DNA from: a virus
Virus record (IMG/VR): IMGVR_UViG_3300027719_000006
Length of the DNA: 61,295 bases
Reading direction: 5' to 3' (one strand)
The position numbers and the translations under genes are program-made. The notes below the pieces were generated by a model. It saw only the letters and a program-made list of their open reading frames with translations. It was not told the origin of the DNA and searched no databases. Of the stretch, positions 14,843-27,383 are shown one piece after another; positions within the stretch are counted from its first letter, which is position 1, and each line of letters starts with the position of its first letter.

Positions 14843-14874
14843 GTGATTATATTTTATTTAGTTGTGCTTTTTGT

Positions 14875-15801: not shown

Positions 15802-15830
15802 ATTATATATGTTAATTTACTTTCTGTCAA
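15802..15830 (-). promoter_or_regulatory. sigma-A-type promoter, copy P1 of a 4-member conserved promoter-leader cassette
   Basis: Minus strand reads TTGTTGACAgaaa, a 17-nt spacer, then TATAAT (-35 at 15830..15825, -10 at 15807..15802). It is followed by leader hairpin 15769..15793. Confidence 0.7.
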
Positions 15831-16954: not shown

Positions 16955-16989
16955 AAAAAAGATAATGCCTAGTTAACATTATCTTTTTT
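16955..16989. terminator. bidirectional rho-independent terminator closing the sugar island
   Basis: Stem aaagataatg (16958..16967) / cattatcttt (16977..16986), with flanking A-run and T-run. Confidence 0.75.
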
Positions 16990-17075
16990 GTGCATTTTTA
17001 TATAGGGTTCAAATTCAATTTTTTTAGAGTGTTTTTGTGTTTTTGATGTGCATACATAGTCTTTGAGTTATTATA

Positions 17076-18206
17076 TTATATGTTTAAACTAGTTGCAATA
17101 CTTTTCAAACATTCTGCTGCTGTTTTTCCTGCCTTGCCTTTTAAGTTACTTGGATAAATATTTTCTATGAATTCCTTTTCTTTGTCTCCCATGCCTTTTT
17201 CTAATGCTATATCAATCATCTTGTTTAATTCTTTCATGTCTCTTGCATGATATCCTATTCCTTCGTTGTATATCCTATATTCAAAATTATCTTTATCATT
17301 CTTAAAGTGATTCAATACGCTATCTTTACATATCCAGTCAGGAAAAATTACAGGCTTTCCTATTATCCAAGCTTCATATAGTGTAGAACCTGCATCAGCA
17401 ATTACTACATCTGAGTCGACAAGCTCCTGAATAGTAGGTGTTTGTTTTTGTCTCTCATTCATCTTGCTTGTTGGATGAAGTGCTATCTTTGTTATGTAAT
17501 CCTTTGAAATTTCTTTGACCAACTTATTACATTGTGGATAGCTTGACCTTCCTTGATTCTTTGTATTATAGCCATGTGTAGGACACCATGCAACATATGG
17601 CTTGTTATATGTATTTCTTTTTACTTCACCATTTAAAATATCATCCAATTTAGTGTAGCCAGTAATAAATATTTCGCCTTTGTAACCAGTTTTTCTCATT
17701 CTATCTTCCCAAGCTTGCCCAGGCACAAAAGCATATTTGTATTCTCTTATATTTTCGCCTATCCAATAATTCTTATCTGCTATGCCATGACTTATAAAAA
17801 TGTCTTTGTCTCCAACTGGATACTTGCCTTGTTCATTTATTCTCATAGATGAAAAGAATCGACAATTTATTCCTGGAAATGGTCTATTAATCAAATCAGA
17901 TGAAGGAAGATGTTTTATTATTGGGTTAGCTAATGCAGCAATAGCAAACTTATAAGCTTCACCAGCATGTTGTCCTTGATTGTCTAGGCAAAAGTGAAAC
18001 TTGTTAGGATTAGGTTTAGTCAACCCATGTATTTTTGCGTATTCTGCATTATTTAATTTACCTACTCTTAACCCTTTATTGCATCGTATATTTCTAAAAG
18101 TTTCAGATGTGCTTCCAAGATTAACGATTTTCTCCTTAAATGGTTCAAAGTCTAAACCATCAATAGAAATTTTATAATGACACTTATTAAATATATTTAC
18201 TAACAA
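17076..18206 (-). CDS. CDP-glycerol/ribitol (poly)alditol-phosphate transferase, TagB/TagF-like GT-B protein (376 aa)
   Basis: TTG start 5 nt after the strong RBS aggaggtga. Motifs KPYVAWCPTHGYN (compare the YAPTWR motif of Glyphos_transf) and DSDVVIADAGSTLYEAWIIGKPVIF (C-terminal Rossmann of GT-B). A PseG-like role cannot be excluded. Confidence 0.6.
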   Translation of the reverse strand: MLVNIFNKCHYKISIDGLDFEPFKEKIVNLGSTSETFRNIRCNKGLRVGKLNNAEYAKIHGLTKPNPNKFHFCLDNQGQHAGEAYKFAIAALANPIIKHLPSSDLINRPFPGINCRFFSSMRINEQGKYPVGDKDIFISHGIADKNYWIGENIREYKYAFVPGQAWEDRMRKTGYKGEIFITGYTKLDDILNGEVKRNTYNKPYVAWCPTHGYNTKNQGRSSYPQCNKLVKEISKDYITKIALHPTSKMNERQKQTPTIQELVDSDVVIADAGSTLYEAWIIGKPVIFPDWICKDSVLNHFKNDKDNFEYRIYNEGIGYHARDMKELNKMIDIALEKGMGDKEKEFIENIYPSNLKGKAGKTAAECLKSIATSLNI

Positions 18207-18210
18207 TGTT

Positions 18211-18843
18211 TCACCTCCTAATAGTTATATTTTGTCCATCTAAAAATGGTATATCTTTATCTAAGATTGATACTATAAAGTCTGCTATCTCATCAGCTTT
18301 CAACATATTTTCAAAATCATCATCTGGACAAATTTTGAATCTCATTTTAGATCCAAAAGCTTCAGGAGATATGCAATATACTTTTATACTGTTTTCTTTC
18401 AAACTCTCTGACAAACTCAAGCTAAAACTTATTACCGCCGCTTTGCTTGCAGCATATGCAAATCTATCCGGTCTTACTCCTGTGCCTGCTGTACTTGATA
18501 TGTTTATTATGTTGCCAGGTATATCATTTAAGATACAAAAATCTACATATGTTTTGCATAAGTTAACCATGGCAAAAAAGTTTACTTCAAATTGTTGTTT
18601 AACATCATCCATAGTTGTTTCTAAAATATTGCCAGGTATACATACTCCAGCATTATTTATCAGTGCAACTGGTAAATCTCCCAAATCACTTAAGAAACTA
18701 TTTACAGCTTCATAATCTGTTATATCAAGGTTATTCCATTTTGACAATCCATAATAATTTCTATCTTTATCAGACATACACCACTTTTTAGCAATTGCAC
18801 TTCCTAATTTGCCTTCACTTCCAGAAATTATTATGTTACTCAT
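18211..18843 (-). CDS. short-chain dehydrogenase/reductase (210 aa), candidate sugar-phosphate reductase
   Basis: Classical SDR motifs: N-terminal glycine-rich ISGSEGKLGSAI, NNAG, and catalytic S...YAASK. Overlaps the cytidylyltransferase gene by 8 nt. Confidence 0.75.
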   Translation of the reverse strand: MSNIIISGSEGKLGSAIAKKWCMSDKDRNYYGLSKWNNLDITDYEAVNSFLSDLGDLPVALINNAGVCIPGNILETTMDDVKQQFEVNFFAMVNLCKTYVDFCILNDIPGNIINISSTAGTGVRPDRFAYAASKAAVISFSLSLSESLKENSIKVYCISPEAFGSKMRFKICPDDDFENMLKADEIADFIVSILDKDIPFLDGQNITIRR

Positions 18844-19525
18844 TTGTAATTGTACCTTTCTTATACTTGTATATAGTTTCAGCTAATTTCAAATCAAGTG
18901 GTGTAGTAATTTTAATATTTTCTTCTAATCCATTGACTGTTGAAAATTCTTTGTACATCTGATAATAAGTGTATATATCATCTGAGTCATCTTCTCTATT
19001 TTGCATTTTTGCCTCAAGGTGACTATTTATAAGAAGTTCAGTGTTGAATTTTTGAGGCATCTGAACCTCTCCTATTTCGTTTCTATTGAATGCTTCAAAC
19101 CTTGATATTGGAGTAGATGCAGTATATTTTATAGGTGTTACAGCTTCACCATTTTTACAATTAACAGTGTTGAATAATTCTTCTGTAATAAAAGGTCTTA
19201 CTGCCTCAGATATAAAAACATAATCCGAGTTAACTTCTAATAAAGCATTGTATACTGAAAATTGCCTTGTTTCTCCTTCTCCAATTAAAATAAATCTGCT
19301 CATATCAAATTGATATGCTTTCAATATTTCAGAAGTTAATTTCATATCACATGTAACTATGATAATGTTGTCAATATAGTCTATGTTTGTTGCAACTTCC
19401 AAACCATGTATAAATATTGGTTTAAATCCTAATCTAGAAAATTGTTTAGGATATCCTAAATTTGTCCTGAATCCTTTTCCACCCATTAGATAAATTAGAT
19501 CAGCTTTCTCCATTTGTTTCTCCAT
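18836..19525 (-). CDS. IspD/TarI-family sugar-phosphate cytidylyltransferase (about 229 aa)
   Basis: N-terminal LMGGKGFRTNLGYPKQFSRLGFKPIFIHGLE matches the aGG.G.R....PKQf..l.gkPi signature. ATG 19525 has GAGG 9 nt upstream. The track's 19534 and ATG 19513 are alternative starts. Confidence 0.7.
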   Translation of the reverse strand: MEKQMEKADLIYLMGGKGFRTNLGYPKQFSRLGFKPIFIHGLEVATNIDYIDNIIIVTCDMKLTSEILKAYQFDMSRFILIGEGETRQFSVYNALLEVNSDYVFISEAVRPFITEELFNTVNCKNGEAVTPIKYTASTPISRFEAFNRNEIGEVQMPQKFNTELLINSHLEAKMQNREDDSDDIYTYYQMYKEFSTVNGLEENIKITTPLDLKLAETIYKYKKGTITNE

Positions 19526-20957
19526 CAATTTCATCCTCTACTTTGTCTATTTCTTTCTTTTTTGTTCTTGTCTTCTTGACTACATTTTTCTTGAATACTC
19601 TTGTTATATATTCCTCATGCAATCCAAATTCTTTAGTGCAATTGTATTCTTCTATTTGAGTAAAATTATATTGTTCAAAGACATCCTTATAATTTCTTTT
19701 AAATGTTCTACTACCATCTTTTGTTTCAATTTCTATTACTACCAACATTTTACAAGCATATGCTATTTTCTCAAATATCCAATCTGAGTCAGGATGAACA
19801 TGATTAAACACTGCCATGCTTATTCCTAAATCAAATTCATTTTCTGTGAACCCTGTAACTCCGCTTACAAAATGTTCAATAGTTCCATGCATAACATTTA
19901 TAGATTCTGCCATTTCTGAATATTCTTTTTGCATTAGTTTTATTGCGTCCGAATTTAATTCTATTCCAGATAAATTTTTATGTCCTTTTTGGAATAGATA
20001 ATTTAAGTTCCTACCACAGTTACAGCCATATTCTATTATGTTAGATTTTTCTGTAATATATTTTTGTACAATGTTGTACAAGAATTCGCTTCTTTCTGTG
20101 TGTACAATATATTTGTCTGTAGTATTCTTCGAAGGTGGATTTGACCAATATTTTAATGCTTCTTTTAATGTTAATGGAACTATTGTATCTTTCTTAATGC
20201 CTTTATTTTTTAATGCATTGTCAAATGTTTTATCCATTTTAATCCTCTTTTCTTTTAATCTTAATTTATGCAAAAATATTTTTTGTATCTCCCAATCATG
20301 CCTTATCTTAGGAGTCCTAGGTTTTTTATTATCCTTTCTAACTAGTCTCTTTTTACTGTCTTCCCAAAGCCAATCTGGAGATACTGTATATCCACTATTA
20401 TACCCAGTTCCATAGAAGTCACATCCACAAATATATAATTCTTTTAAGGATGTTTGCAGTAAATACACAATGGCTAATGTTGACATGTTTGGGTCTGTAT
20501 TCTCTAGTTTAGCTCTTAGCTTTCTAAGAAAAAATGTTTCTATTGCAACCATTTTAATTTTACTACTTCTTTGTTCGATTAAGTCTGTCAATTTGTCTAT
20601 CATTACTTTTTCAGCTTTTCCACCAGTAATAGGGTTTCTTTTAGATATGAACCACTTTAATTTATTCAACTCCAATGTTTCTATTCTTCCTAGTTTAAGT
20701 TGATTAGCTGCATATTTTAAAGTTGTATTGACTGCTCCTGTGTGAAATAAAACATCTGTTCTGCTGCCTAAATCTACAAATGATTCTTTCTTAATTGGAT
20801 AGCTATTATTTAATCTTACAACTATATCATAGCTATCAATAAACTTGCCCATTCCACTACCATCTAGATACTGAGCTGGTCCAACTATGATAACTTTTTT
20901 ATTGTTTACATATTTGAAAAAGTCTTTTCTATTGCTTACATATTCCATGGCATCCAT
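19500..20957 (-). CDS. two-domain protein: sialyltransferase-like (GT29/GT42-type) nonulosonate transferase fused to a class I SAM methyltransferase (485 aa)
   Basis: N-terminal KKVIIVGPAQYLDGSGMGKFIDSYDIVVRLNNSYP...LGSRTDVLFH resembles sialyl motif L. DPNMSTLAIVYLL..LKELYICGCDFYGTGYN resembles motif S. The C-terminal IIEYGCNCGRNLNYL is SAM motif I. Confidence 0.55.
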   Translation of the reverse strand: MDAMEYVSNRKDFFKYVNNKKVIIVGPAQYLDGSGMGKFIDSYDIVVRLNNSYPIKKESFVDLGSRTDVLFHTGAVNTTLKYAANQLKLGRIETLELNKLKWFISKRNPITGGKAEKVMIDKLTDLIEQRSSKIKMVAIETFFLRKLRAKLENTDPNMSTLAIVYLLQTSLKELYICGCDFYGTGYNSGYTVSPDWLWEDSKKRLVRKDNKKPRTPKIRHDWEIQKIFLHKLRLKEKRIKMDKTFDNALKNKGIKKDTIVPLTLKEALKYWSNPPSKNTTDKYIVHTERSEFLYNIVQKYITEKSNIIEYGCNCGRNLNYLFQKGHKNLSGIELNSDAIKLMQKEYSEMAESINVMHGTIEHFVSGVTGFTENEFDLGISMAVFNHVHPDSDWIFEKIAYACKMLVVIEIETKDGSRTFKRNYKDVFEQYNFTQIEEYNCTKEFGLHEEYITRVFKKNVVKKTRTKKKEIDKVEDEIDGETNGES

Positions 20958-21668
20958 TTACTTTGCCTCCTTTATTAACTTTGCTAAAACATCATCAAAA
21001 TATAATCTATTATCTCTATTTTGTAACTTTTTCAAATAAGACAATTGTATATCTTTAAAATGTCCATTTTTAGGCATAGTAAACGTCATGCTCTTCTCTC
21101 TGACTAGCTTGTTTTGCGAATCATCCCATACCCAACCAGGCGTAATTGTATAAGCTTTGTTATATCCAGTTCCATAGAAATCACAACCACATACATACAA
21201 CGTTTTCAAGTCAGTTTTCAATAAATAATCTATTGCTATGGTTGACATGTTAGGTTCTGTTTTATTCAGTTGTATTCTTAGATTTTCTAGAAATTTTAAC
21301 TCGATAGGAAGTACTTTTATTTGACCAGTTCCATCTTGCTCAATTTCATTTATCAATTTTGTAACATTTGGTGCTTCTGCTTTTCTCTTTGATACATACC
21401 ATCTTATCCCGTCATTATTTAGTGTCTTTACATCTGTAAAAATACCGCCAGTATGGAATAAAATGTCTGTTCTACTTCCTAAATTGCTAAAATCACACAA
21501 AGGATAACTGTTATTCAACCTTATTATTACATCATATTTGTCTATGAACTCGCCATGGTTTGATCTTGATAAATAATCGGCTGGTCCAACTATGATGCAT
21601 TTTTTGTCTCTAACAGTTTTGTTAAAAGTTTCAAAATCTCTAATTGTTCTCATTATTTTTAAAATCAT
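20958..21668 (-). CDS. sialyltransferase-like (GT29/GT42-type) nonulosonate transferase, paralogue of the N-domain of 19500..20957 (236 aa)
   Basis: KKCIIVGPADYLSRSNHGEFIDKYDVIIRLNNSYP..LGSRTDILFH and EPNMSTIAIDYLL..LKTLYVCGCDFYGTGYN align colinearly with the neighbouring gene. The start is uncertain (21668 or 21653). Confidence 0.55.
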   Translation of the reverse strand: MILKIMRTIRDFETFNKTVRDKKCIIVGPADYLSRSNHGEFIDKYDVIIRLNNSYPLCDFSNLGSRTDILFHTGGIFTDVKTLNNDGIRWYVSKRKAEAPNVTKLINEIEQDGTGQIKVLPIELKFLENLRIQLNKTEPNMSTIAIDYLLKTDLKTLYVCGCDFYGTGYNKAYTITPGWVWDDSQNKLVREKSMTFTMPKNGHFKDIQLSYLKKLQNRDNRLYFDDVLAKLIKEAK

Positions 21669-22308
21669 CTCTCATTTCTATTAAATTTATTATGTCTTCG
21701 ACTTTCTTAAAATCGTCCAAGGTGTCTACACTATATTTACCATTTATTACTTTTCCAAAACAATTAACTTCACTTTTTTTATAATTTTTGTTGTTTCTAA
21801 TCCATGGTGTAACATGTTCTCTGTCATATCCCACGGCGAAATCATTTGCAGCAAATAAAGCCTCAATTGTCATAACTTCGACATCTAATCCGCTTGGATA
21901 TCCTTTCAACCCCCTATTCCATGTATAATCATTCTTTTTTTCTATATGTTCTTCTATGACTAAATCTATTATCCATTTAAAGTAAAACAGTAGTGGACAA
22001 TCCGAAGTTATTCTTACTACATTTTCGATTTTGCTATTCTTTTTATATTCTTCAAAGGCTATGCTATAATATCTTTTCAGTACGTCACTACTATCCCCAC
22101 TAAATACCCTTACATTATTAAAATTATCAGTAAATATTTTCGTCTTATCTCCTTCGTCAGGAACAGCTAAAAATACTTTATTTACATATTTAGCTTTGCA
22201 GGCTGCTAGATAAGAGTAATTTGTCATAGGTATATTTAACATTTCCTTCATACATTTTCCTGGGAATCTTGATGATTCTAGTCTTGATTGAATAATTGCT
22301 ATGTTCAT
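21640..22308 (-). CDS. nonulosonate cytidylyltransferase (SpsF/PseF-like, CTP_transf_3), 222 aa
   Basis: N-terminal IAIIQSRLESSRFPGKCMKEM matches the iQaR.gS.RlPgK signature of SpsF-type cytidylyltransferases. Adjacent to the NeuB-like gene. Confidence 0.65.
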   Translation of the reverse strand: MNIAIIQSRLESSRFPGKCMKEMLNIPMTNYSYLAACKAKYVNKVFLAVPDEGDKTKIFTDNFNNVRVFSGDSSDVLKRYYSIAFEEYKKNSKIENVVRITSDCPLLFYFKWIIDLVIEEHIEKKNDYTWNRGLKGYPSGLDVEVMTIEALFAANDFAVGYDREHVTPWIRNNKNYKKSEVNCFGKVINGKYSVDTLDDFKKVEDIINLIEMRDDFKNNENN

Positions 22309-22309
22309 T

Positions 22310-22933
22310 TTACATTATCTCCTTTAGTTGCCTTGGTGTTCTTGCAAATTCGCCACTGTCTAACCCTGTTGTATTCTCTAATTTATAGTGCCATTCTATT
22401 ATTTCAGGCTTATATATATTGTATAACTCAAATGTTGCTGTATGGTCTGATATATTATCGCCTCGCAACATTCCCAAATCTTCATATTCTTTTCGATAAG
22501 CTGGGTAATTAGACACACACCAAAGATGAGTTACTCTTCTTTTAAAATCTACTGAATAACTATATTTGTATGAAGAAATATAAACATCTATATTTTTTGG
22601 AACATGTTTTACAAGGCTATGTAAAGTTTTATTATTTGCTATTTTTACAAATGGTATATTATAATTCAATAAAAATTTTAATGATTCTATGTCAAATACT
22701 GAGGCAGTAACATTGTATCCTAAGTATTTTCCGTATCTATAAGCTAAATCAAATTTATCCATTTCCAAAGGTGTATTTAATCCAGCTGATTTAAACAATT
22801 GCCATTTTATAGTTATTTTAGTTTTGCCTGAGTCTATTTTCTTTAACTCATTGTACATTTCTTTTATTATGTCATCATCATTCAAACAAGTGTTGCCACT
22901 TCCAAAATCTAATACTATCTCTTTAGTCTTCAT
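22310..22933 (-). CDS. NeuB-family nonulosonic acid synthase (PseI/LegI/SpsE-like) TIM-barrel domain only (207 aa, no SAF domain)
   Basis: Motifs KWQLFK, ASVFDIESLKFLLNYNIPFVKIA, LWCVSNYPA and ISDHT, then IEWHYKL. These follow the order of NeuB-family signatures. The protein is short relative to typical family members. Confidence 0.6.
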   Translation of the reverse strand: MKTKEIVLDFGSGNTCLNDDDIIKEMYNELKKIDSGKTKITIKWQLFKSAGLNTPLEMDKFDLAYRYGKYLGYNVTASVFDIESLKFLLNYNIPFVKIANNKTLHSLVKHVPKNIDVYISSYKYSYSVDFKRRVTHLWCVSNYPAYRKEYEDLGMLRGDNISDHTATFELYNIYKPEIIEWHYKLENTTGLDSGEFARTPRQLKEIM

Positions 22934-24008
22934 CTTCCTGTCTCCTTAAAAACATATTTATCGAGTCAGCAATACCATTTCTGAGATAGAATTTTAATCC
23001 AACAAATAATGGTATAGAAACTATTATGTCTTTTATTAGTTCTGTATTTTTGCAATTTTCTTTTGATTGGTCTGTGTAATCTGAATAATATTGATTTTCA
23101 TAGATAGGTCTATAGTGAACTCCACAATTTATATTATTAGTTTTCATATATTCTATAAATTCCTGCCTATCTTTCATCTTTATGACAAATAAATGGTTGG
23201 CATGATTATTTTCTTTTTTGAGTAAGATTTCTTTAGGAAGTTTTCTTCTGTATTCTTGTGCTTGTTCTTCTCTCCTATTAAGGAATAAACCGATTTTCTT
23301 TAACTGGGATATCCCTAAAGCCGCTTGCATTTCATTCATTCGATAATTATATCCTAGTATAGTTTGTGTAAATCCATCATACCTTCCATGATTTATAAAC
23401 GCTTTAATATATAAATATGTTTCAAAATCATTAGTTAGACACATTCCACCTTCTCCAGTTGTGATATTTTTAACTGGATGAAATGAATAGCATGTTATAT
23501 GAGAATATTCTTTGTCATTGCAGCTACTTGTCAAGGCTCCTACTGAATGACAGGCATCTGAAATTAACTTTAAGTTATATTTATCGCATAGTTCATTTAG
23601 CTTTATATAATTACACATTTGTCCAGCATAATCCATAGCTATCACTGCTTTTGTCAACGGAGTTATAAGTTTTTCTATGTTGTCTATATCTATTAACAAT
23701 GTGTTAATATTTACATCTGCAAATACTGGTACACAGTCGCAATACTTGACACAATTCGCAGTAGCCAAAAATGATAATCCTGGAACTATTACTTCGCTGT
23801 CTTTTTCTAAATTTAATGAACTTATTGCAGAGTGTAAAGCAGCTGTCCCAGATGACATTGCTATGGCATACTTGTAACCAGTATATTCACACATTTGTTC
23901 TTCGAATTGTAAAACTTTTGTACCTTGTGTTAAAAAATCAGAATTCATCACATTTGTAACTGCTTCTGTATCATTGTAATCTATCCATTGCTTTCCATAG
24001 TTAATCAT
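22923..24008 (-). CDS. DegT/DnrJ/EryC1-type PLP aminotransferase (PseC/SpsC-like), 361 aa
   Basis: Motifs FLTQGTKVLQFEE, MSSGTAALHSAI and the PLP-lysine context YSFHPVKNITTGEGGMC. Confidence 0.8.
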   Translation of the reverse strand: MINYGKQWIDYNDTEAVTNVMNSDFLTQGTKVLQFEEQMCEYTGYKYAIAMSSGTAALHSAISSLNLEKDSEVIVPGLSFLATANCVKYCDCVPVFADVNINTLLIDIDNIEKLITPLTKAVIAMDYAGQMCNYIKLNELCDKYNLKLISDACHSVGALTSSCNDKEYSHITCYSFHPVKNITTGEGGMCLTNDFETYLYIKAFINHGRYDGFTQTILGYNYRMNEMQAALGISQLKKIGLFLNRREEQAQEYRRKLPKEILLKKENNHANHLFVIKMKDRQEFIEYMKTNNINCGVHYRPIYENQYYSDYTDQSKENCKNTELIKDIIVSIPLFVGLKFYLRNGIADSINMFLRRQEDED

Positions 24009-24966
24009 TTATAATATTCCTCATTTCATCAACCGTATAAAATAGATCTTCGTTGTCTGATGTGTAATTTAAAATACTGTGTTCTTTTATATTTTTTACA
24101 GATTCTTTATTTTTATATACAACAAAATAATTTTCGAATTCTTCAGTTCTAATTGATTCATCTTCTGAAATTAATATTTCATTTATCTTTTCGCCTTGTC
24201 TAGTACCAACAAACTTAATTTTTATATTAGGATTTATTGCTTCTACTAACTCAGTTATTTTCATTGATTTTATTTTAGGTATGAATATCTCTCCACCTTT
24301 CATATTCATCAATGCAAATATAACTATATCTATCGCCTGTTCAATCTTCATGAAAAACCTAGTCATATCTTTATCTGTAACATTAACTATATTTTTATCA
24401 ATTATTTGTTGTTTGAATTTTGGTATAACTGAACCTCTAGAACTTAGTACATTTCCATATCTAACACATGACATAGTTGTATATTTTGTAGAATAGCAAT
24501 TACCATTAATAAATATTTTCTCAAGACACATTTTAGTGCCTCCGTATAAATTTATAGGGTTAACTGCCTTATCTGTGCTTAATGCTACAACTTTTCTGAC
24601 CTTGCAATCTATAGCAGCATTTGCGACATTCATTGCTCCGAGTATATTTGTTTGTATTGCTTCGAATGGATTATCTTCGCAGGATGGAACTTGCTTTTGA
24701 GCAGCTGCATGTATAACAAAATCTATGTCATAAAATGCTCTTTTAAGTCTTTGGTAATCTTTTATATCTCCAATTAAGAAAGAAATCTTGATGCTATTTC
24801 CAAACTCTTCTCTCATCAAATCTTGTTTGAATTCATCCCTGCTATAAATGTATATCTGTTGTACATCATAATTATCTAGCAAGTATCTTGTAAATGCTTT
24901 GCCAAATGTACCAGTTCCACCAGTTATTAAAATCCTTTTGCCGTTCAGTATATTTGTATTTATCAT
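24001..24966 (-). CDS. UDP-GlcNAc 4,6-dehydratase (PseB/FlaA1/CapD/SpsM family), 321 aa
   Basis: Motifs ILITGGTGTFGKAF, YSRDEFKQ, STDKAVNPINLYGGTK and VRYGNVLSSRGSVIPKF are the hallmarks of Polysacc_synt_2. Confidence 0.85.
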   Translation of the reverse strand: MINTNILNGKRILITGGTGTFGKAFTRYLLDNYDVQQIYIYSRDEFKQDLMREEFGNSIKISFLIGDIKDYQRLKRAFYDIDFVIHAAAQKQVPSCEDNPFEAIQTNILGAMNVANAAIDCKVRKVVALSTDKAVNPINLYGGTKMCLEKIFINGNCYSTKYTTMSCVRYGNVLSSRGSVIPKFKQQIIDKNIVNVTDKDMTRFFMKIEQAIDIVIFALMNMKGGEIFIPKIKSMKITELVEAINPNIKIKFVGTRQGEKINEILISEDESIRTEEFENYFVVYKNKESVKNIKEHSILNYTSDNEDLFYTVDEMRNIIND

Positions 24967-24977
24967 GTTTTTCTCCT

Positions 24978-25021
24978 AAAAAAATATTCTGTATATGTAT
25001 AATCATACAGAATATTTTTTA
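24978..25021. terminator. 12-bp perfect hairpin (terminator and/or operator) just upstream of the dehydratase gene
   Basis: Stem aatattctgtat (24983..24994) / atacagaatatt (25005..25016), with an A-run before and a T-run after. It splits the island into two transcription units. Confidence 0.65.
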
Positions 25022-25040
25022 AAAAACTCAAAATATAATT

Positions 25041-25373
25041 TTAAAAATTATCTATTCTGAAAATTCTTTTTGAGTCTTCGTTTAATTTTTGTTTTATGAA
25101 TAACAATTCTTCTAATGAAAAATATGTTATTGAATCTTTGCTCTTGCCTCCAAGGCTACATATTTTATTACAAAGTGTGCCTTTAGTTATTTTTAACTCA
25201 GTAGCTAACTGTTTTAGAGATATTTGATTTTCTTTTAACTGGTCTCTTAGGCAATCACTATCAATGATATAATTTAAATCAGCCAAATTAGATAAATATA
25301 TAATATCTTCAATAGTTATATTTTTAAATAATTCTAATCGTTCTGATATTGTTAACTTATTTTTTTTCTTCAT
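25041..25373 (-). CDS. small HTH protein (110 aa)
   Basis: ISLKQLATELKITKGTLCNKI looks like a helix-turn-helix. Overlaps the GNAT gene by 17 nt. Confidence 0.5.
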   Translation of the reverse strand: MKKKNKLTISERLELFKNITIEDIIYLSNLADLNYIIDSDCLRDQLKENQISLKQLATELKITKGTLCNKICSLGGKSKDSITYFSLEELLFIKQKLNEDSKRIFRIDNF

Positions 25374-25905
25374 AACTCATATAAAAATCAAACTTATTAA
25401 TATTAAAATATAAACTATCCCAAAACTCATGGTCATAAAATTTTCTTGAAGGTAACAATGTTTTATAACCTTTATATTTATCGGCTATCTTCTCCCAAAA
25501 TTTTATAGCTGGCTTATTGCACTTGTAACATTCACCATAAATATTAGTTAAATGCATATTTCCAAATGCATGTTTAAGCAAGCACTCGACCGATTCAGTT
25601 CCATAACCTTTTCCAGTATATTCAGGATTAACTATTAATGATATCTCTGCTATAGAGTTTTCATATTCTATGTTTGTGATTCCTCCAAATGCAACAAATT
25701 CAGCATTATGATAAAACCCCTCAGCAATGCTCTCTATTGCAAAATATCTATGTTTACTATTTCTATTAGATATAACTTCTTTATAAAATTTTTCTTGCAT
25801 TTCAGTACTTGTAAAATATGGGGTTCTAAGTGTTTCTATTTTGTCATTTCTCCATTTTATTATATCTATACAATGTCCTAACTCTACACTAGCTAATTTA
25901 ATCAT
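25357..25905 (-). CDS. GNAT N-acetyltransferase (PseH/SpsD-like), 182 aa
   Basis: N-terminal ...IDIIKWRNDKIETLR resembles PseH-type proteins. GNAT core LIVNPEYTGKGYGTESVECLLKHAF. RBS gaggaga. Confidence 0.7.
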   Translation of the reverse strand: MIKLASVELGHCIDIIKWRNDKIETLRTPYFTSTEMQEKFYKEVISNRNSKHRYFAIESIAEGFYHNAEFVAFGGITNIEYENSIAEISLIVNPEYTGKGYGTESVECLLKHAFGNMHLTNIYGECYKCNKPAIKFWEKIADKYKGYKTLLPSRKFYDHEFWDSLYFNINKFDFYMSYEEKK

Positions 25906-25915
25906 TTTTATCTCC

Positions 25916-26164
25916 TCATTTCAAAAATCCAATTAAAATACCAATTATGGCAGATACAAGTGTTGAAATAGCTATAATCTTTTTAGTTTCAGATTCAGCC
26001 TTTTTAATTTCTAAATCATATTTAGTTTTAAATGAACATTCGCCCTGTTTCTGACTACATTCATTTTTAGTCATCATCACATCAATGACATGGTCTAATT
26101 TTGACTCTACTCTATTGACACTATTTGTTAGTATTCTAATTGCTTCTAGTTCTCCAACACTCAT
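25916..26164 (-). CDS. small C-terminally membrane-anchored protein (82 aa), XhlA/holin-like architecture
   Basis: Coiled-coil N-terminus plus a single C-terminal TM segment (IIAISTLVSAIIGILIGFL). RBS aagagg. The family call is tentative. Confidence 0.4.
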   Translation of the reverse strand: MSVGELEAIRILTNSVNRVESKLDHVIDVMMTKNECSQKQGECSFKTKYDLEIKKAESETKKIIAISTLVSAIIGILIGFLK

Positions 26165-26205
26165 ATAATACCTCTTTCACTGTTCTTCTTATGTTTTGTA
26201 TAACA

Positions 26206-27372
26206 TTAACTTATTTGCTCTCTTGCATAATTTCTATTCAAATATCTATTTTTATTAAGATGTTCTCTTTGTACCTTTTGCCATTCTCTAACTTTATCAT
26301 TCATTGCTTTTTTATCTCTATCAGTTAATTGTACATCTTTGAGTCTTTTGTATTTTCTTATCTGTCTTTCATTATATCGTTGCCTTTGTTGTTGCTGATA
26401 AGTATATTTCTGAGCTTCCTCATATCCCATATCATTTATTAATTTTCTTTCTGCATAATCTATACTGGCGTTAACTTTATCTGTATGTTCCAAGTATACC
26501 GACATACCATGCTTGCAATTTGGATGAAATAACCCGTCTAATATTGCTTCATCTACTGTTTTGTATCCTGGAATAGGTTGAATGGAAAGTATCTCGCCTT
26601 CAAATTGAGCGCAAACATCACAACTTCTAAAATGTGCTGTAATTTGTACTAGTTCATACCCTCCCTCTTGAAATGCGTTTAGTGAACCCTGTAATGAAGC
26701 CCTACCTGACATTGTTCGACCTACCATTTCGCAATATGTGTCTAAGGAATGTTTTGCACCATTTTTATATGTTATACTTTGCAATCCAGCTTTGGCATAG
26801 TTATTTAATAGTCTCTGTGAAAATTGTTTTCTTGTCATTACATTTCCTTCTATAAATTCACTTGTTCCTGTTTCAATGGCTATTTTTCTAAATAAATCGT
26901 CAGTTGTTCGAATAATTTGAATACCTGTGCCATCCCATGTATTAATTGCCGCTTCTCTGAAAATATTATAAAATCTAATATGATTCTTGTATTCAGTAAA
27001 TTCAGATGTTATTTTAATCGGAATAGTTGTATTAGTTGGTGCTGTATGTTTAATTAAAGATGAACCATTTTTTATATCAGCAACTACAGGTGAACTTAAA
27101 CCATTTTGTAATAATTGTTTTTGGGCATCTTTTATTCCAATTAAATAAGAATCTGCTATGCCATAATTTGACCACTTTTTAGCATCTTGCTCAAATTTTA
27201 CAGCAATCTTTTTCACTTCTTTTTCATAAAACATTCTTATTCTTGAGATATCCCCTGGGTTTTTAATAAGTCTTTCATTAACATTTTTAAGCAATACACC
27301 TATTCCAAAAACAACTTCCTCAGAGGCTAATATCAAGTCATCAGCTAAATATTCATAAGTTCCAGCATCCAT
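26206..27372 (-). CDS. minor head protein, SPP1 gp7 / Mu F-like (about 388 aa)
   Basis: Follows the portal gene. Motifs CDVCAQFEGEILS and HPNCKH. The tracked start 27381 is a GTG inside the RBS ggtga; ATG 27372 follows it by 5 nt. Confidence 0.8.
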   Translation of the reverse strand: MDAGTYEYLADDLILASEEVVFGIGVLLKNVNERLIKNPGDISRIRMFYEKEVKKIAVKFEQDAKKWSNYGIADSYLIGIKDAQKQLLQNGLSSPVVADIKNGSSLIKHTAPTNTTIPIKITSEFTEYKNHIRFYNIFREAAINTWDGTGIQIIRTTDDLFRKIAIETGTSEFIEGNVMTRKQFSQRLLNNYAKAGLQSITYKNGAKHSLDTYCEMVGRTMSGRASLQGSLNAFQEGGYELVQITAHFRSCDVCAQFEGEILSIQPIPGYKTVDEAILDGLFHPNCKHGMSVYLEHTDKVNASIDYAERKLINDMGYEEAQKYTYQQQQRQRYNERQIRKYKRLKDVQLTDRDKKAMNDKVREWQKVQREHLNKNRYLNRNYAREQIS

Positions 27373-27383
27373 TTTTATCACCT

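What the first reader, a model, noticed from the sequence alone, without database searches (positions are those of the whole stretch)
17076..26164. Phage-borne 5,7-diamino-nonulosonic acid (pseudaminic/legionaminic-type) pathway inserted inside the head-morphogenesis operon
The canonical order terS, terL, portal, MuF, scaffold, capsid is broken between the MuF-like gene (26206..27372) and the scaffold gene (14053..14709). A co-oriented insert sits there, and its core reads as a nonulosonate pathway.
- 24001..24966: PseB/CapD/SpsM-type 4,6-dehydratase (GGTGTFG, SRDEFKQ, STDKAVNPINLYGGTK, VRYGNVLSSRGSVIP).
- 22923..24008: DegT/PseC-type aminotransferase (SSGTAALH, FHPVKNITTGEGG).
- 25357..25905: PseH/SpsD-like GNAT.
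- 22310..22933: NeuB-family synthase barrel (KWQLFK, FVKIA, CVSNYPA, ISDHT) without a SAF domain.
- 21640..22308: SpsF/PseF-type cytidylyltransferase (IIQSRLESSRFPGK).

These cover the dehydratase, aminotransferase, N-acetyltransferase, condensation and CMP-activation steps. Only the UDP-sugar hydrolase step (PseG/SpsG) is not recognisable.

Such pathways are known as bacterial flagellin, capsule or spore-crust functions. Here the genes sit in a phage late operon, bracketed by terminators at 24978..25021 and 16955..16989. That placement suggests either glycosylation of virion proteins or remodelling of host surface glycans late in infection. I cannot match this arrangement to a described phage system from memory.
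Basis: partly seen in the sequence, partly recalled or inferred. Interest (0 to 1): 0.88.

Follow-up and report, generated by a model that had tools for sequence, protein, structure and literature searches.

The report
Phage-encoded pseudaminic-acid and ribitol-phosphate glycan cassette
A complete 61-kb phage genome, like every relative checked, carries between its head-assembly genes a conserved set of soluble enzymes for a bacterial sialic-acid-like sugar (pseudaminic-acid type) and CDP-ribitol, plus the transferases to attach them, which most likely sugar-coat the phage's own particle, although the target has not been shown.

Summary
The window is a complete phage genome with a 127-bp terminal repeat. 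Between the MuF-like gene and a primase-like gene, scaffold and capsid lies a co-oriented cassette.

- **Nonulosonate branch:** PseB (378 bits), PseC (328 bits), a GNAT, a 207-aa SAF-less NeuB/PseI-fold barrel (pLDDT 94) and a CMP-sugar-type cytidylyltransferase.
two GT29 sialyltransferase-like proteins (one fused to a SAM methyltransferase), an IspD/TarI-like cytidylyltransferase, an SDR, and a TagF/TarL-like polyol-phosphate transferase (by Foldseek and bacterial homologues).
- **Missing:** PseG is not found in the window or in the relatives' Pfam tables.

The cassette is not a chimera or a recent insertion. All 12 distinct relatives with enough flanking DNA have it in the same place. It is about as conserved as portal and terminase. 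dN/dS is 0.06-0.21.

No enzyme has a membrane segment. No priming transferase, flippase or exporter is recognised. No integrase is recognisable.

Best reading: cytoplasmic synthesis of CMP-pseudaminic-type sugar and CDP-ribitol, followed by transfer to virion proteins. The chemistry is at about 0.8 confidence and the virion target at about 0.45. The main rival is remodelling of host envelope or flagellar glycans. Seven literature searches found no description. I rate it a new variant of a known kind.

The parts
25916..26164 (-). orf82, a small protein with a C-terminal hydrophobic helix. It is conserved only in near relatives and its role is unknown.
   Evidence: ORF. Maximum KD19 hydropathy 2.65 at residue 63. 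No Pfam hit. 93-100% identical in L010-L012 only.
25357..25905 (-). GNAT N-acetyltransferase, the candidate for the PseH-like 4-N-acetylation step.
   Evidence: PF00583 and PF13302, 51 bits. TIGR03585 PseH only 28 bits against a cut-off of 93. A 42-52% identical orthologue is present in most relatives but placed after the cytidylyltransferase.
25041..25373 (-). orf110, a small protein, possibly a helix-turn-helix protein. It is not part of the conserved core.
   Evidence: HTH_11 with E 0.037 only. Found in near relatives only.
24978..25021 (-). A-tract / 17-bp hairpin / U-tract, terminator-like, immediately upstream of the PseB ribosome-binding site.
   Evidence: dG -16.4 kcal/mol, z -7.2, 0 of 200 shuffles as stable. 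Sequence. Not called by the GC-requiring scan.
24001..24966 (-). PseB-type inverting UDP-GlcNAc 4,6-dehydratase/5-epimerase.
   Evidence: TIGR03589, 378 bits, E 3e-113 (cut-off 407.75). PF02719, 328 bits. The STDKAVNPINLYGGTK motif is present. 50-55% identical orthologues in relatives. dN/dS 0.21.
22923..24008 (-). PseC-type PLP aminotransferase (DegT family).
   Evidence: TIGR03588, 328 bits, E 9e-98 (cut-off 423.5). PF01041, 332 bits. The SFHPVK lysine motif is present. dN/dS 0.15.
22310..22933 (-). Short (207 aa) NeuB/PseI-fold TIM barrel without a SAF domain, the candidate PEP-condensing nonulosonate synthase.
   Evidence: PF03102, 25.4 bits. Family profile against PDB: best hit is PseI 8h2c, E 3.6e-6, with the CxSxYP, SDH and ExH motifs aligned. 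AF2 pLDDT 94.2; Foldseek top hits are all NeuB/PseI/SpsE, with 6ncs at TMq 0.78. 757 homologues of about 205 aa. H164 is nearly invariant (90% or more) and H182 is invariant. dN/dS 0.07.
21640..22308 (-). CMP-sugar-type cytidylyltransferase (CTP_transf_3, SpsF/KdsB/NeuA superfamily), the candidate for CMP activation of the nonulosonate.
   Evidence: PF02348, 80.6 bits. KdsB subfamilies 42 bits and PseF 22 bits. PDB 6oew 'Cytidylyltransferase', E 3.5e-16. dN/dS 0.08.
20958..21668 (-). GT29 (sialyltransferase-family)-like protein, a candidate CMP-nonulosonate transferase.
   Evidence: PF00777, 38.5 bits against a cut-off of 23. Sialylmotif L- and S-like blocks and an invariant His are in alignment A3. 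The only significant PDB hits of the family profile (E <= 0.022) are GT29 sialyltransferases, best E 1.2e-4; the three weaker rows are unrelated.
19500..20957 (-). Fusion protein: an N-terminal GT29-like domain (about residues 1-240) and a C-terminal class I SAM methyltransferase (about residues 290-415).
   Evidence: PF00777, 39.8 bits. Methyltransf_25/11, 32 bits. Best NCBIfam hit is TIGR03587 'pseudaminic acid biosynthesis-associated methylase', 37.6 bits (cut-off 112). In relatives the two domains are separate adjacent genes.
18836..19534 (-). IspD/TarI-family cytidylyltransferase, the candidate ribitol-5-phosphate (polyol-phosphate) cytidylyltransferase that makes the CDP-polyol.
   Evidence: PF01128, 88.6 bits. 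TIGR00453, 118.6 bits. NF001183 ribitol-5-P cytidylyltransferase, 89 bits. PDB hits: IspD 5ddt E 5e-19 and TarI 6xhp E 1.5e-16. Bacterial orthologues are adjacent to the TagF-like gene.
18211..18843 (-). Short-chain dehydrogenase/reductase, the candidate ribulose-5-P to ribitol-5-P reductase (Bcs1-type logic).
   Evidence: PF00106, 93 bits. The YAASK catalytic motif is present. It is always adjacent to the IspD-like gene in relatives and in Anaerovorax and Luteimonas.
17076..18206 (-). TagF/TarL-like GT-B protein, the candidate CDP-polyol:acceptor polyol-phosphate transferase. It is the most conserved protein of the cassette.
   Evidence: No Pfam hit of its own. Faint TarB match, E 0.002. AF2 pLDDT 90.6. 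Foldseek top hits are TagF 3l7j (E 2.5e-10), Cps3D 8qoy and TarL with CDP-ribitol 8va1. A 37% identical Anaerovorax homologue passes PF04464 Glyphos_transf (23.9 against 22.1) and sits next to IspD-like and SDR genes. 50-66% identical across the clade. dN/dS 0.06.
16955..16989 (-). A-tract / 15-bp hairpin / U-tract, terminator-like, downstream of the TagF-like gene.
   Evidence: dG -13.6 kcal/mol, z -5.4. Sequence.
15817..16887 (-). Zn-finger plus Toprim (DnaG-like primase) gene. It is syntenic with the cassette in the relatives whose sequence reaches that far and is probably not part of the glycan chemistry.
   Evidence: PF13155, 50.7 bits. PHROG DNA primase families. 39-47% identical orthologue between the cassette and the scaffold gene in relatives.
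26206..27381 (-). MuF-like minor capsid protein 2, the upstream border.
   Evidence: PF06152, 119.8 bits.
14053..14709 (-). Scaffolding protein (weak match), the downstream border. It is followed by the major capsid protein at 13033-14013.
   Evidence: PF06810, 22.9 bits (below cut-off), and PF05065, 76.5 bits.

Best explanation
The stretch 17076-25905 is a self-contained cytoplasmic glycosylation cassette. It is a fixed part of the head-gene region in a clade of uncultivated phages of about 55-62 kb with a long tape-measure protein.

**Branch 1: the nonulosonate donor.** This branch would turn host UDP-GlcNAc into a CMP-activated 5,7-diamino-nonulosonate of the pseudaminic type. The proposed steps are:
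1. PseB-type dehydratase.
2. PseC-type aminotransferase.
3. GNAT N-acetylation.
4. An unidentified UDP-sugar hydrolase, either host-supplied or non-homologous.
5. PEP condensation by the short SAF-less NeuB-fold barrel.
6. CMP activation by the CTP_transf_3 enzyme.

**Branch 2: the polyol donor.** The SDR would reduce a pentulose-5-phosphate. The IspD/TarI-like enzyme would then make the CDP-polyol, most likely CDP-ribitol.

**Transfer.** Three transferases and a methyltransferase would assemble a short methylated glycan containing nonulosonate and ribitol-phosphate. The two GT29-like enzymes would use the CMP-sugar. The TagF-like enzyme would use the CDP-polyol.

**Acceptor.** The acceptor should be available in the cytoplasm. 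I think it is most likely the phage's own virion proteins (capsid, decoration or tail), giving a glycan-coated particle.

**Shown and inferred.**
- Shown: gene content, folds, conservation and purifying selection.
- Shown: absence of membrane segments and of recognisable export functions.
- Inferred: substrate identities, the order of steps, expression timing and the acceptor.
For: **Enzyme assignments.**
- PseB scores 378 bits and PseC 328 bits, each far above any other family.
- The NeuB-fold barrel is modelled at pLDDT 94. Its 12 best PDB matches are all NeuB/PseI/SpsE structures. The family profile's best PDB hit is PseI, with the CxSxYP, SDH and ExH motifs aligned.
- The cytidylyltransferase matches CTP_transf_3 at 80.6 bits.
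- Both GT29-like proteins pass the Pfam gathering score. The family profile's only significant PDB hits are GT29 sialyltransferases.
- The IspD/TarI-like enzyme is supported.
- The TagF-like assignment rests on Foldseek hits to TagF, Cps3D and TarL. It also rests on a bacterial homologue that passes PF04464 and is adjacent to IspD-like and SDR genes.

**Transferase slot.** This slot swaps between relatives:
- GT29 plus methyltransferase plus pyruvyltransferase.
- A KpsS/KpsC-like Capsule_synth protein.
- GT2 plus a GT32-like protein.

This pattern resembles surface-glycan loci.

**Integral to the phage.**
- The genome is complete, with a 127-bp terminal repeat.
- The cassette is at the same site in all 12 distinct relatives with enough flank.
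- Its proteins are as conserved as portal and terminase. The TagF-like protein is 50-66% identical, portal 50-55% and MuF 41-50%.
- dN/dS is 0.06-0.21, against 0.13 for MuF.

**Cytoplasmic acceptor.**
- No enzyme has a hydrophobic segment.
- None of the Pfam hits in the window or in the relatives' gene tables is a polyprenyl-phosphate priming transferase, flippase, polymerase or ABC exporter.

**Lifestyle.** No ORF of 300 aa or more matches an integrase or recombinase family. This argues against lysogenic conversion.

**Precedents.**
- Flagellin is pseudaminylated in the cytoplasm (PMC13317340).
- Mycobacteriophage capsid and tail-tube proteins carry glycans made by phage enzymes (Freeman et al. 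2023, PMID 37329881, as cited in PMC12619734 and PMC11256854).
Against: - **PseG step.** No PseG-type UDP-sugar hydrolase is recognisable in the window or in the relatives' Pfam tables, so the pathway is incomplete by homology.
- **Weak assignments.** The NeuB-like protein lacks the SAF domain and scores only 17.5 bits on the PseI equivalog model. The cytidylyltransferase and the GNAT are assigned at family level only.
- **Variant relative.** L023 keeps PseC, the short NeuB and the ribitol trio but lacks PseB, the CMP-transferase and the GNAT. The nonulosonate reading does not explain this.
- **No acceptor identified.** The major capsid protein has no obvious Ser/Thr-rich extension. The small proteins next to it are not conserved across the clade.
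- **Position is weak evidence.**
  - The same region holds moron-like genes in relatives (Dam, Tad5, pRha, GerE).
  - Terminator-like hairpins subdivide it.
  - In the mycobacteriophage precedent the glycosyltransferase genes are not in the head operon (PMC11256854).
- **TagF substrates.** TagF-family enzymes normally act on lipid-linked cell-wall polymers.
Confidence: 0.45

Rival explanations
1. The chemistry is the same, but the target is the host. The transferases would decorate host glycoconjugates assembled on the cytoplasmic face: lipid-linked wall teichoic acid or capsule precursors, or flagellin or S-layer protein before export. Host machinery would then export them. This would change the cell surface during infection, for example to block superinfection or to stop progeny adsorbing to debris.
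For: - TagF/TarL-family enzymes normally extend lipid-linked teichoic acids at the inner face of the membrane. The best structural matches are TagF, Cps3D and TarL.
- Bacterial homologues with IspD-like and SDR neighbours exist in cellular genomes.
- Phage-borne genes are known to modify host nonulosonate-containing capsules (PMC12053666, PMC6586298).
- Clostridial flagellins are pseudaminylated in the cytoplasm (PMC13317340).
- If the host already makes pseudaminic acid, it could supply the missing PseG step.
Against: - No integrase or recognisable lysogeny module is present. Conversion of a long-lived lysogen is therefore unlikely.
- The cassette is fixed next to the capsid genes and is as conserved as core structural proteins. 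That is unusual for conversion morons.
- No membrane-association segment was detected.
- A surface change made during a lytic cycle has limited time to act.
Confidence: 0.3
2. The cassette makes a soluble or nucleotide-linked product, or drains a host nucleotide-sugar pool. It would act as a counter-defence or metabolic take-over function and would glycosylate no macromolecule that ends up in the virion or on the cell surface.
For: - The region is a hotspot for counter-defence-like and regulatory genes in relatives: Dam, Tad5, a weak Acb2/Tad1 hairpin, pRha.
- The pathway is incomplete by homology, since PseG is missing.
- L023 lacks several steps.
Against: - Three or more transferases are conserved alongside the donor-synthesis genes. 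This implies transfer to an acceptor.
- The swapping of the transferase slot is typical of glycan-structure diversification.
Confidence: 0.1
3. The sugars are attached to phage DNA as a hypermodification that blocks restriction or CRISPR.
For: - Virus-encoded glycosyltransferases that hypermodify DNA with diverse glycans are known (Pyle et al. 2024, cited in PMC12619734).
- A Dam-like methylase sits next to the cassette in some relatives.
Against: - No dNMP hydroxymethylase, thymidylate-synthase homologue or DNA-glycosyltransferase family was found among the window ORFs scanned.
- GT29-like and TagF-like enzymes are not known to act on DNA (my own knowledge).
- CMP-nonulosonates and CDP-ribitol are not known donors for DNA modification (my own knowledge).
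Confidence: 0.03
4. Artefact: a chimeric assembly, or bacterial DNA misjoined into a phage contig.
For: A glycan island of bacterial type inside a head operon is unusual. GC content in the island is about the same as in the flanks, which neither supports nor excludes this reading.
Against: - The window has an exact 127-bp terminal repeat, so the assembly closes on itself.
- The same cassette is at the same position in independent assemblies from NCBI, JGI, ENA, Logan and IMG/VR.
- GC content is uniform at 0.28-0.33 across the borders.
- All genes are under purifying selection.
Confidence: 0.01

Closest known systems
Bacterial CMP-pseudaminic acid pathway with cytoplasmic flagellin O-pseudaminylation (PseB/C/H/G/I/F plus Maf transferases in Campylobacter, Helicobacter, Aeromonas, Clostridium)
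   Same: - It uses the PseB- and PseC-type first two enzymes, a GNAT, a NeuB-family condensing enzyme and a cytidylyltransferase.
- A methyltransferase is associated.
- All enzymes are soluble and cytoplasmic, with direct transfer to a protein before assembly or export (PMC13317340).
   Different: - There is no PseG.
- The synthase is a 207-aa barrel without the SAF domain.
- The transferases are GT29-like (or KpsS-like in relatives), not Maf/DUF115.
- It is linked to a CDP-ribitol branch.
- It is encoded by a phage beside capsid genes rather than beside flagellin genes.
Mycobacteriophage virion glycosylation (Che8, Rita and others; Freeman et al. 2023, PMID 37329881)
   Same: - Phage-encoded transferases act in the cytoplasm on capsid and tail-tube proteins.
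- The result is a glycan shield (as summarised in PMC12619734 and PMC11256854).
   Different: - As far as the texts I could read show, those phages carry glycosyltransferases only, located near the right end of the genome.
- Here the phage carries two donor-synthesis branches as well as the transferases.
- The sugars and the transferase families differ.
- Attachment to the virion is unproven here.
Wall teichoic acid and group 2 capsule polyol-phosphate machinery (TarI/TarJ or Bcs1 CDP-ribitol synthase with TagF/TarL/Cps3D-type transferases)
   Same: - An IspD-family cytidylyltransferase and a reductase sit next to a TagF-fold transferase.
- An SDR serving as the reductase matches the Bcs1 type (my own knowledge).
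   Different: - The phage protein is a compact 376-aa single GT-B unit with no detectable membrane-binding region.
- It does not reach the PF04464 threshold itself.
- There is no linkage-unit priming enzyme or TagGH-type exporter.
- It is paired with a nonulosonate pathway.
GT29 sialyltransferases of eukaryotes and their viruses
   Same: - Both proteins pass the Pfam PF00777 gathering score.
- Blocks resembling sialylmotifs L and S and an invariant His are conserved.
- The donor is expected to be a CMP-nonulosonate.
   Different: - The proteins are about 240 aa, soluble, and have no stem or transmembrane region.
- They belong to a large uncharacterised metagenomic family: 5,329 cluster representatives at E <= 1e-3.
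- The probable donor is a pseudaminic-type sugar, not Neu5Ac.
- No activity has been shown.
Prophage-borne modifiers of host nonulosonate glycans in Acinetobacter baumannii (epaA/epaB; O-acetyltransferases)
   Same: Phage genes act on pseudaminic or legionaminic acid chemistry (PMC12053666, PMC6586298).
   Different: - Those are one or two tailoring genes on prophages, and they alter a host-made capsule.
- Here a non-integrating phage carries the synthesis pathway and the transferases.

Membership tests
CMP-pseudaminic acid pathway | PseB: inverting UDP-GlcNAc 4,6-dehydratase | tested here: inconclusive
   TIGR03589 scores 378 bits over the full length, just under the equivalog cut-off of 407.75. 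The next family, FnlA, scores 254 bits and LegB 59 bits. The best reading is PseB-type, but the strict equivalog threshold is not reached.
CMP-pseudaminic acid pathway | PseC: UDP-4-keto-sugar aminotransferase | tested here: inconclusive
   TIGR03588 scores 328 bits over the full length against a cut-off of 423.5. The LegC family scores 215 bits.
CMP-pseudaminic acid pathway | PseH: 4-N-acetyltransferase | tested here: inconclusive
   A GNAT is present (51 bits). The PseH model scores only 28 bits against 93, similar to the RimI and SpeG models.
CMP-pseudaminic acid pathway | PseG: UDP-sugar hydrolase | tested here: not met
   None of the ten island proteins scanned with NCBIfam matches PseG. 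The only GT-B protein resembles TagF/TarL, and PseG is not among its 50 best structural matches. Nothing PseG-like appears in the relatives' Pfam tables.
CMP-pseudaminic acid pathway | PseI: NeuB-family synthase made of a TIM barrel plus a C-terminal SAF domain | tested here: not met
   The barrel is present and confidently NeuB/PseI-like. The protein ends at residue 207 with no SAF domain. TIGR03586 scores 17.5 bits against 340. It may work like PseI but is not a canonical member.
CMP-pseudaminic acid pathway | PseF: CMP-pseudaminic acid synthetase | tested here: inconclusive
   CTP_transf_3 scores 80.6 bits. TIGR03584 PseF scores 22.5 bits against 205.7, and KdsB subfamilies score 42 bits. 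This is a superfamily-level assignment only.
GT29 sialyltransferase family (PF00777) | Pfam gathering score reached, with sialylmotif L/S-type blocks | tested here: met
   The two proteins score 39.8 and 38.5 bits against a cut-off of 23. Conserved IVGPA..G..ID..D.V.R.N and PN(M/T)S...G(C/F)DFY blocks and an invariant His are in alignment A3. The profile's only significant PDB hits are ST3Gal-I, ST6Gal-I, ST8Sia-III and ST6GalNAc-II. Reading the blocks as sialylmotifs rests on my own knowledge.
GT29 sialyltransferase family (PF00777) | CMP-sialic acid-dependent transferase activity | not testable with these tools
   This needs an enzyme assay.
TagF/TarL CDP-polyol phosphotransferases (PF04464 Glyphos_transf) | Sequence membership in PF04464 | tested here: inconclusive
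   The window protein has no Pfam hit at E <= 0.01 and only a faint TarB match, E 0.002. A 37% identical Anaerovorax homologue does pass PF04464, at 23.9 against 22.1.
TagF/TarL CDP-polyol phosphotransferases (PF04464 Glyphos_transf) | TagF-type GT-B fold | tested here: met
   The AF2 model has pLDDT 90.6. Foldseek ranks 1-14 are TagF (E 2.5e-10, TM about 0.5), Cps3D and TarL with CDP-ribitol. UDP-GlcNAc 2-epimerases follow. The TM-score is only moderate.
TagF/TarL CDP-polyol phosphotransferases (PF04464 Glyphos_transf) | Genomic coupling to a CDP-polyol synthase | tested here: met
   It is adjacent to IspD-like and SDR genes in the window, in all phage relatives, and in Anaerovorax and Luteimonas genomes.
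CDP-ribitol synthase (TarI/TarJ or Bcs1 type) | Ribitol-5-phosphate cytidylyltransferase, as distinct from IspD | tested here: inconclusive
   IspD models score 118 bits (cut-off 181) and the ribitol-5-P model NF001183 scores 89 bits (cut-off 166). The PDB hits IspD (5e-19) and TarI (1.5e-16) are about equal. Context favours a polyol-phosphate, but the identity of the polyol is not established.
Phage virion glycosylation systems (mycobacteriophage type) | Glycan covalently attached to capsid or tail proteins | not testable with these tools
   This needs glycoproteomics of purified virions. No isolate of this clade was found in the phage collection.

The most novel reading that the evidence does not exclude
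A widespread, so far uncultivated clade of phages builds two activated donors itself: a CMP-pseudaminic-type nonulosonate and CDP-ribitol. It then uses GT29-like and TagF-like transferases to coat its own capsid or tail with a teichoic-acid-like, sialic-acid-like glycan. This would be the first virion glycosylation system in a phage that carries its own nonulosonate pathway. It would also be the first assigned function for a prokaryotic or viral branch of the GT29 sialyltransferase family, and for a SAF-less mini-NeuB synthase.
Probability: 0.35. Interest if true: 0.85.

Novelty: new variant of a known kind. Interest (0 to 1): 0.72.

Why it matters
**If the glycan ends up on the particle.**
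- Phages would be able to make and wear bacterial 'sialic-acid-like' sugars and teichoic-acid-like phosphodiester groups.
- That would bear on how phages evade antibodies or host surface traps, how they stick to mucus or biofilms, and how they mimic their host's surface.

**Whatever the target.** The cassette offers three enzymological leads.
- A minimal 207-aa NeuB-fold synthase without the SAF domain.
- A soluble GT29-like transferase of about 240 aa. It belongs to a family with thousands of uncharacterised metagenomic members.
- A compact TagF-like polyol-phosphate transferase that is always coupled to an IspD-like/SDR pair, also in bacteria.

**Testable evolutionary point.** The donor-synthesis genes stay constant while the transferase slot swaps, which suggests glycan diversification in a virus.

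Tried and rejected
- **Close DNA relatives among deposited phages.** A megablast of 13000-31200 found none.
- **Protein searches of deposited phages.**
  - PseB gives only distant hits of 41% identity or less.
  - The short NeuB gives none.
  - The TagF-like protein gives one hit, Thermobifida phage P1312 at 30% identity.
  - No cultured member of the clade is available.
- **The 376-aa protein as the missing PseG.**
  - Rejected as the main reading, because its best structural matches are TagF, Cps3D and TarL.
  - Its bacterial homologue is PF04464 and sits next to IspD-like and SDR genes.
  - A hydrolase role is not strictly excluded.
- **Sequence-only PDB searches.** The 376-aa protein and its family profile found nothing useful.
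- **WDGH-domain gene.** Some relatives carry one between the NeuB-like and cytidylyltransferase genes, and I considered it as a PseG substitute. It is absent from the window and from other relatives, and the Pfam entry carries no function.
- **Host identification.** The long contigs of 122 kb and 113 kb are about twice the genome size and show only phage genes in the stretch read. MAG labels are mutually inconsistent (Spirochaetes, Clostridiales, Bacteroidales, Ignavibacteria, archaea), so these are binned phage contigs. The host remains unknown.
- **A conserved Ser/Thr-rich acceptor next to the capsid gene.** orf222 is not conserved, and orf280 changes position between relatives.
- **Names for the GT29-like family.** Cluster look-ups returned only unnamed metagenomic proteins.
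- **Gene position as evidence.** I had recalled that the mycobacteriophage glycosyltransferases sit after the tail genes. The text I could read places them near the 3' end of the genome, so I dropped the positional analogy.
- **Freeman et al. 2023.** The paper itself is not held in the library.

Full report
**1. What the window is**

The 61,295-base window begins and ends with the same 127 bases. It is therefore a closed assembly of a 61,168-bp phage genome.

Most genes are on the minus strand. Reading that strand 5' to 3' (window coordinates from high to low), they are:
- A RecT recombinase.
- A RecD-like helicase.
- An FtsK-like ATPase.
- An ERCC4 nuclease.
- An SNF2 helicase.
- A PAPS-reductase/DUF3440 gene paired with a ParB-like gene.
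- A block of small ORFs.
- The small and large terminase subunits.
- An SPP1-type portal.
- A MuF-like 'minor capsid protein 2'.
- The region in question.
- A scaffold-like protein.
- An HK97-type major capsid protein.
- Head-tail connectors.
- A 773-aa tape measure protein.
- Tail proteins.

A DUF927 primase-like gene and an endolysin are on the plus strand.

No ORF of 300 aa or more matches an integrase or recombinase family. There are no tRNA genes. GC content is a uniform 0.26-0.37, with no break at the borders of the finding.

Yes. Their family assignments hold.

| Coordinates | Assignment | Score |
|---|---|---|
| 24001-24966 | PseB (TIGR03589) | 378 bits, cut-off 407.75; FnlA next at 254 |
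| 22923-24008 | PseC (TIGR03588) | 328 bits, cut-off 423.5; LegC family next at 215 |
| 25357-25905 | GNAT | 51 bits; PseH model only 28 |
| 22310-22933 | NeuB family (PF03102) | 25.4 bits, above gathering score |
| 21640-22308 | CTP_transf_3 (PF02348) | 80.6 bits |

No PseG-like protein was found.

They are clearly non-random:
- The hairpin at 24978-25021 has dG -16.4 kcal/mol and z -7.2.
- The hairpin at 16955-16989 has dG -13.6 kcal/mol and z -5.4.
- Each is flanked by A- and U-tracts.

**3.

This stretch turns a sugar pathway into a complete glycosylation system.

- **GT29-like transferases.** Two paralogous proteins pass the Pfam gathering score for GT29 sialyltransferases, at 38.5 and 39.8 bits against 23. 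They are 20958-21668 and the N-terminal half of 19500-20957.
  - An alignment with 19 relatives shows conserved blocks. From my knowledge of the family, these resemble sialylmotifs L and S, and there is an invariant histidine.
  - A profile of this alignment finds only GT29 enzymes in the PDB at E <= 0.022: ST3Gal-I, ST6Gal-I, ST8Sia-III and ST6GalNAc-II. The three weaker rows are unrelated.
- **Methyltransferase.** The C-terminal half of 19500-20957 is a SAM methyltransferase. Its best NCBIfam match, though weak, is the 'pseudaminic acid biosynthesis-associated methylase'.
- **CDP-polyol pair.** 18836-19534 is an IspD/TarI-family cytidylyltransferase, about equally similar to IspD and to ribitol-5-phosphate cytidylyltransferases. 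18211-18843 is an SDR with an intact YxxxK motif.
- **TagF-like transferase.** 17076-18206 has no Pfam match.
  - Its family-based AlphaFold model (pLDDT 90.6) is a GT-B protein.
  - The best structural matches are the teichoic-acid polymerase TagF, the capsule polymerase Cps3D, and TarL bound to CDP-ribitol.
  - A scan of species-representative genomes found 33-37% identical homologues in isolates: Anaerovorax odorimutans, Lederbergia lenta and Paenibacillus fonticola. Homologues of 28-31% occur in Luteimonas.
  - In Anaerovorax and Luteimonas the gene is next to IspD-like and SDR genes.
  - The Anaerovorax protein itself passes PF04464, the CDP-glycerol glycerophosphotransferase family.
  - The trio is therefore a recurrent unit that makes a CDP-polyol and transfers polyol-phosphate. 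An SDR as the reductase recalls the Bcs1-type CDP-ribitol synthase (my own knowledge).

**4. Is the short NeuB-like protein a truncated relic?**

No.
- It belongs to a family of at least 757 proteins of about 205 aa.
- H182 is invariant and H164 nearly invariant (90% or more).
- The CxSxYP, SDH and ExH blocks align with the corresponding blocks of C. jejuni PseI. From memory, the two His residues are the metal ligands of NeuB.
- The model is a compact barrel with pLDDT 94.2.
- Its 12 best PDB matches are all NeuB, PseI or SpsE structures. The best is a 285-residue Leptospira NeuB-family chain (6ncs, TMq 0.78). KDO8P and DAH7P synthases follow.
- It lacks the SAF domain that defines canonical PseI and NeuB, so I do not file it as PseI. 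I expect it to work like one.

**5. Is this an insertion or an assembly artefact?**

Neither.

*Contexts retrieved.* I used exact-protein look-ups, an IMG/VR scan with the MuF protein, and the genome scan.
- Every distinct relative with enough downstream sequence has the cassette immediately after MuF. There are 12: L002, L004, L010, L012, L015-L019, L023, L025 and L027.
- Wherever the sequence extends far enough, the cassette lies ahead of the Toprim, scaffold and capsid genes.
- The contigs come from five data sources. Most complete ones are 55-62 kb.

*Identity to the window.*

| Protein | Identity to the window |
|---|---|
| Major capsid protein | 63-75% |
| TagF-like | 50-66% |
| Large terminase | 55-61% |
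| Portal | 50-55% |
| PseB | 50-55% |
| Short NeuB | 50-56% |
| PseC | 44-56% |
| MuF | 41-50% |

*Selection.* Against a near relative (L012, about 90% nucleotide identity), dN/dS is 0.06-0.21 for every cassette gene. MuF is at 0.13.

The cassette has been inherited with the phage core and is under strong purifying selection.

**6. Variation between relatives**

Most donor-synthesis genes and the ribitol trio are constant. The transferase slot swaps:
- **Window:** two GT29-like genes, one fused to the methyltransferase.
- **L002, L005, L015, L016, L019:** polysaccharide pyruvyltransferase, GT29 and methyltransferase.
- **L004, L008:** a KpsS/KpsC-like 'Capsule_synth' protein. From memory, this family includes predicted pseudaminic-acid transferases of Acinetobacter capsule loci.
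- **L023:** an FrhB-like protein, a pyruvyltransferase, a GT2, a methyltransferase and a GT32-like protein. This relative has lost PseB, the CMP-type cytidylyltransferase and the GNAT.

This pattern is typical of surface-glycan loci under diversifying selection. The L023 variant does not fit a pure nonulosonate reading, and I cannot explain it.

Regulatory and counter-defence-like genes are interspersed in relatives: Dam, pRha, GerE, HTH proteins, Tad5 and a weak Acb2/Tad1 hairpin. The region therefore also tolerates accessory genes.

**7. How it most likely works**

*Shown:*
- The gene content, folds and conservation.
- The absence of any hydrophobic segment in the enzymes.
- The absence of any recognisable polyprenyl-phosphate priming transferase, flippase, polymerase or exporter.

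*Inferred:*
- Branch 1 converts UDP-GlcNAc to a CMP-pseudaminic-type sugar. The UDP-sugar hydrolase step comes from the host or from a non-homologous protein.
- Branch 2 makes CDP-ribitol or a related CDP-polyol.
- The GT29-like enzymes transfer the nonulosonate, the TagF-like enzyme adds polyol-phosphate, and the methyltransferase tailors the product.

Because everything is soluble and nothing exports, the acceptor should be cytoplasmic. Three observations make me favour virion proteins:
- The phage shows no lysogeny module.
- The cassette is fixed beside the capsid genes.
- The cassette is as conserved as structural proteins.

Precedents are cytoplasmic flagellin pseudaminylation (PMC13317340) and mycobacteriophage virion glycosylation (Freeman et al. 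2023, as cited in PMC12619734 and PMC11256854).

I put the chemistry at about 0.8 and the virion target at about 0.45.

**8. Rivals**

- **Host remodelling (about 0.3).** This is the main rival. The cassette would remodel host glycoconjugates assembled on the inner face of the membrane (teichoic acid, capsule) or host flagellin or S-layer proteins.
  - TagF-family enzymes normally act there.
  - Phage genes that tailor host nonulosonate capsules are known (PMC12053666, PMC6586298).
- **Soluble-product or counter-defence role (about 0.1).** This cannot be excluded.
- **DNA hypermodification (about 0.03).** Unlikely. No hydroxymethylase or DNA-glycosyltransferase was found, and the enzyme families do not fit.
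- **Artefact (about 0.01).** Excluded by the terminal repeat and the cross-assembly synteny.

**9. Caveats on 'late operon'**

- The hairpin at 24978-25021 separates the MuF/orf82/GNAT/orf110 unit from the PseB-to-TagF-like block.
- A second hairpin follows the TagF-like gene.
- A perfect sigma-70 consensus (15830-15802) and a strong hairpin (14802-14845) lie between the primase-like gene and the scaffold gene.
- A weak promoter-like match (25031-25002, 9 of 12) overlaps the first hairpin, so transcripts starting there might escape termination. This is speculation.
- Timing is therefore unknown.

**10. Novelty**

- Seven full-text searches found no description of a phage-encoded pseudaminic-type pathway, of GT29-like phage transferases or of a CDP-ribitol branch in a phage head region.
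- No deposited phage genome carries the cassette.
- The GT29-like family is large but unnamed. It has 5,329 cluster representatives at E <= 1e-3, many in multidomain proteins.
- Phage glycosylation systems and each enzyme family are known. The combination, the minimal NeuB, the transferase families used and the fixed place in a head module are new.
- I therefore rate it a new variant of a known kind, with interest about 0.7.

Noticed in passing
window 1-127 and 61169-61295: An exact 127-bp direct terminal repeat. The window is a closed, complete phage genome of 61,168 bp.
   Followed up: yes
window 15817-16887 (-): A DnaG-like Zn-finger plus Toprim primase gene sits between the glycan cassette and the scaffold and capsid genes. 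It holds this place in the relatives whose sequence reaches that far (39-47% identity). This is an odd, conserved position for a replication-type gene, and the genome also has a DUF927 primase-like gene at 43383-45599.
   Followed up: partly
window 14802-14845 and 15802-15830: A very stable bidirectional terminator-like hairpin (18 bp, dG -21.3, z -7.8) lies just upstream of the scaffold gene. A perfect TTGACA-17-TATAAT consensus on the minus strand lies at the end of the primase-like gene. The head-gene region is therefore not one simple transcription unit.
   Followed up: partly
window 47153-49103 (-): A PAPS-reductase/DUF3440 protein (PHROG 2302, E 2e-84) is paired with a ParB_N-domain protein. 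From memory this pair resembles IbrA/IbrB. Its function in phages is unclear.
   Followed up: no
window 11264-12106 (-); L005 15856-16662; L025 15833-16591: orf280 has a PHROG 'virion structural protein' match and its relatives a weak ArabFuran-catal match. Its 30-34% identical homologues sit either after the capsid gene or inside the accessory region between the primase-like and scaffold genes. It may be a mobile decoration or carbohydrate-binding protein.
   Followed up: partly
L002 6016-6558; L005 658-1143; L004 15021-15449; L023 3701-4150: Relatives carry Dam methylase, Tad5 (a Thoeris anti-defence family) and a weak Acb2/Tad1-hairpin protein inside or beside the glycan cassette. The region doubles as a hotspot for counter-defence-like genes.
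   Followed up: no
L023 (CAZWGG010000001.1) 1869-11131: This variant cassette lacks PseB, the CMP-type cytidylyltransferase and the GNAT. It keeps the PseC-like gene, the short NeuB, IspD-like, SDR and TagF-like genes. It adds FrhB-like, pyruvyltransferase, GT2, methyltransferase and GT32-like genes. It is not explained by the pseudaminic-acid reading.
   Followed up: partly
L039 (Thermobifida phage P1312, KT021004.1) 10875-12804: This is the only deposited phage with a homologue of the TagF-like protein (30% identity, annotated as a glycosyl/glycerophosphate transferase). The gene sits next to an O-methyltransferase, directly after the tail genes of an isolated actinophage. It may be an experimentally accessible relative.
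   Followed up: partly
L032 9962-12112 and L035 9962-11493 (Anaerovorax odorimutans DSM 5092); L037 (Luteimonas): Bacterial three-gene units of a TagF-like (PF04464) gene, an IspD-like gene and an SDR, homologous to the phage trio. Their cellular acceptor is unknown. One copy lies near a gene for an 1,805-aa TIG-domain protein.
   Followed up: partly
alignment A3; proteins P0267-P0413: The phage GT29-like domain belongs to a large uncharacterised family: 5,329 cluster representatives at E <= 1e-3 and 406 at 1e-30. Members often occur as repeats or inside proteins of 500-1,200 aa. The ten cluster representatives looked up come only from metagenome-type sources and carry no informative name.
   Followed up: partly
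L005 4102-4785; L008 4512-5186: A WDGH-domain protein (PF25311, E 6e-42) lies between the short NeuB and the cytidylyltransferase in some relatives but not in the window. Its function is unknown. I considered it and set it aside as a PseG substitute.
   Followed up: partly
window 40253-40858 (+) and 1274-1957 (+): Two separate lysis-type genes lie far apart on the plus strand: an amidase (PHROG 6095) and an endolysin (PHROG 435).
   Followed up: no
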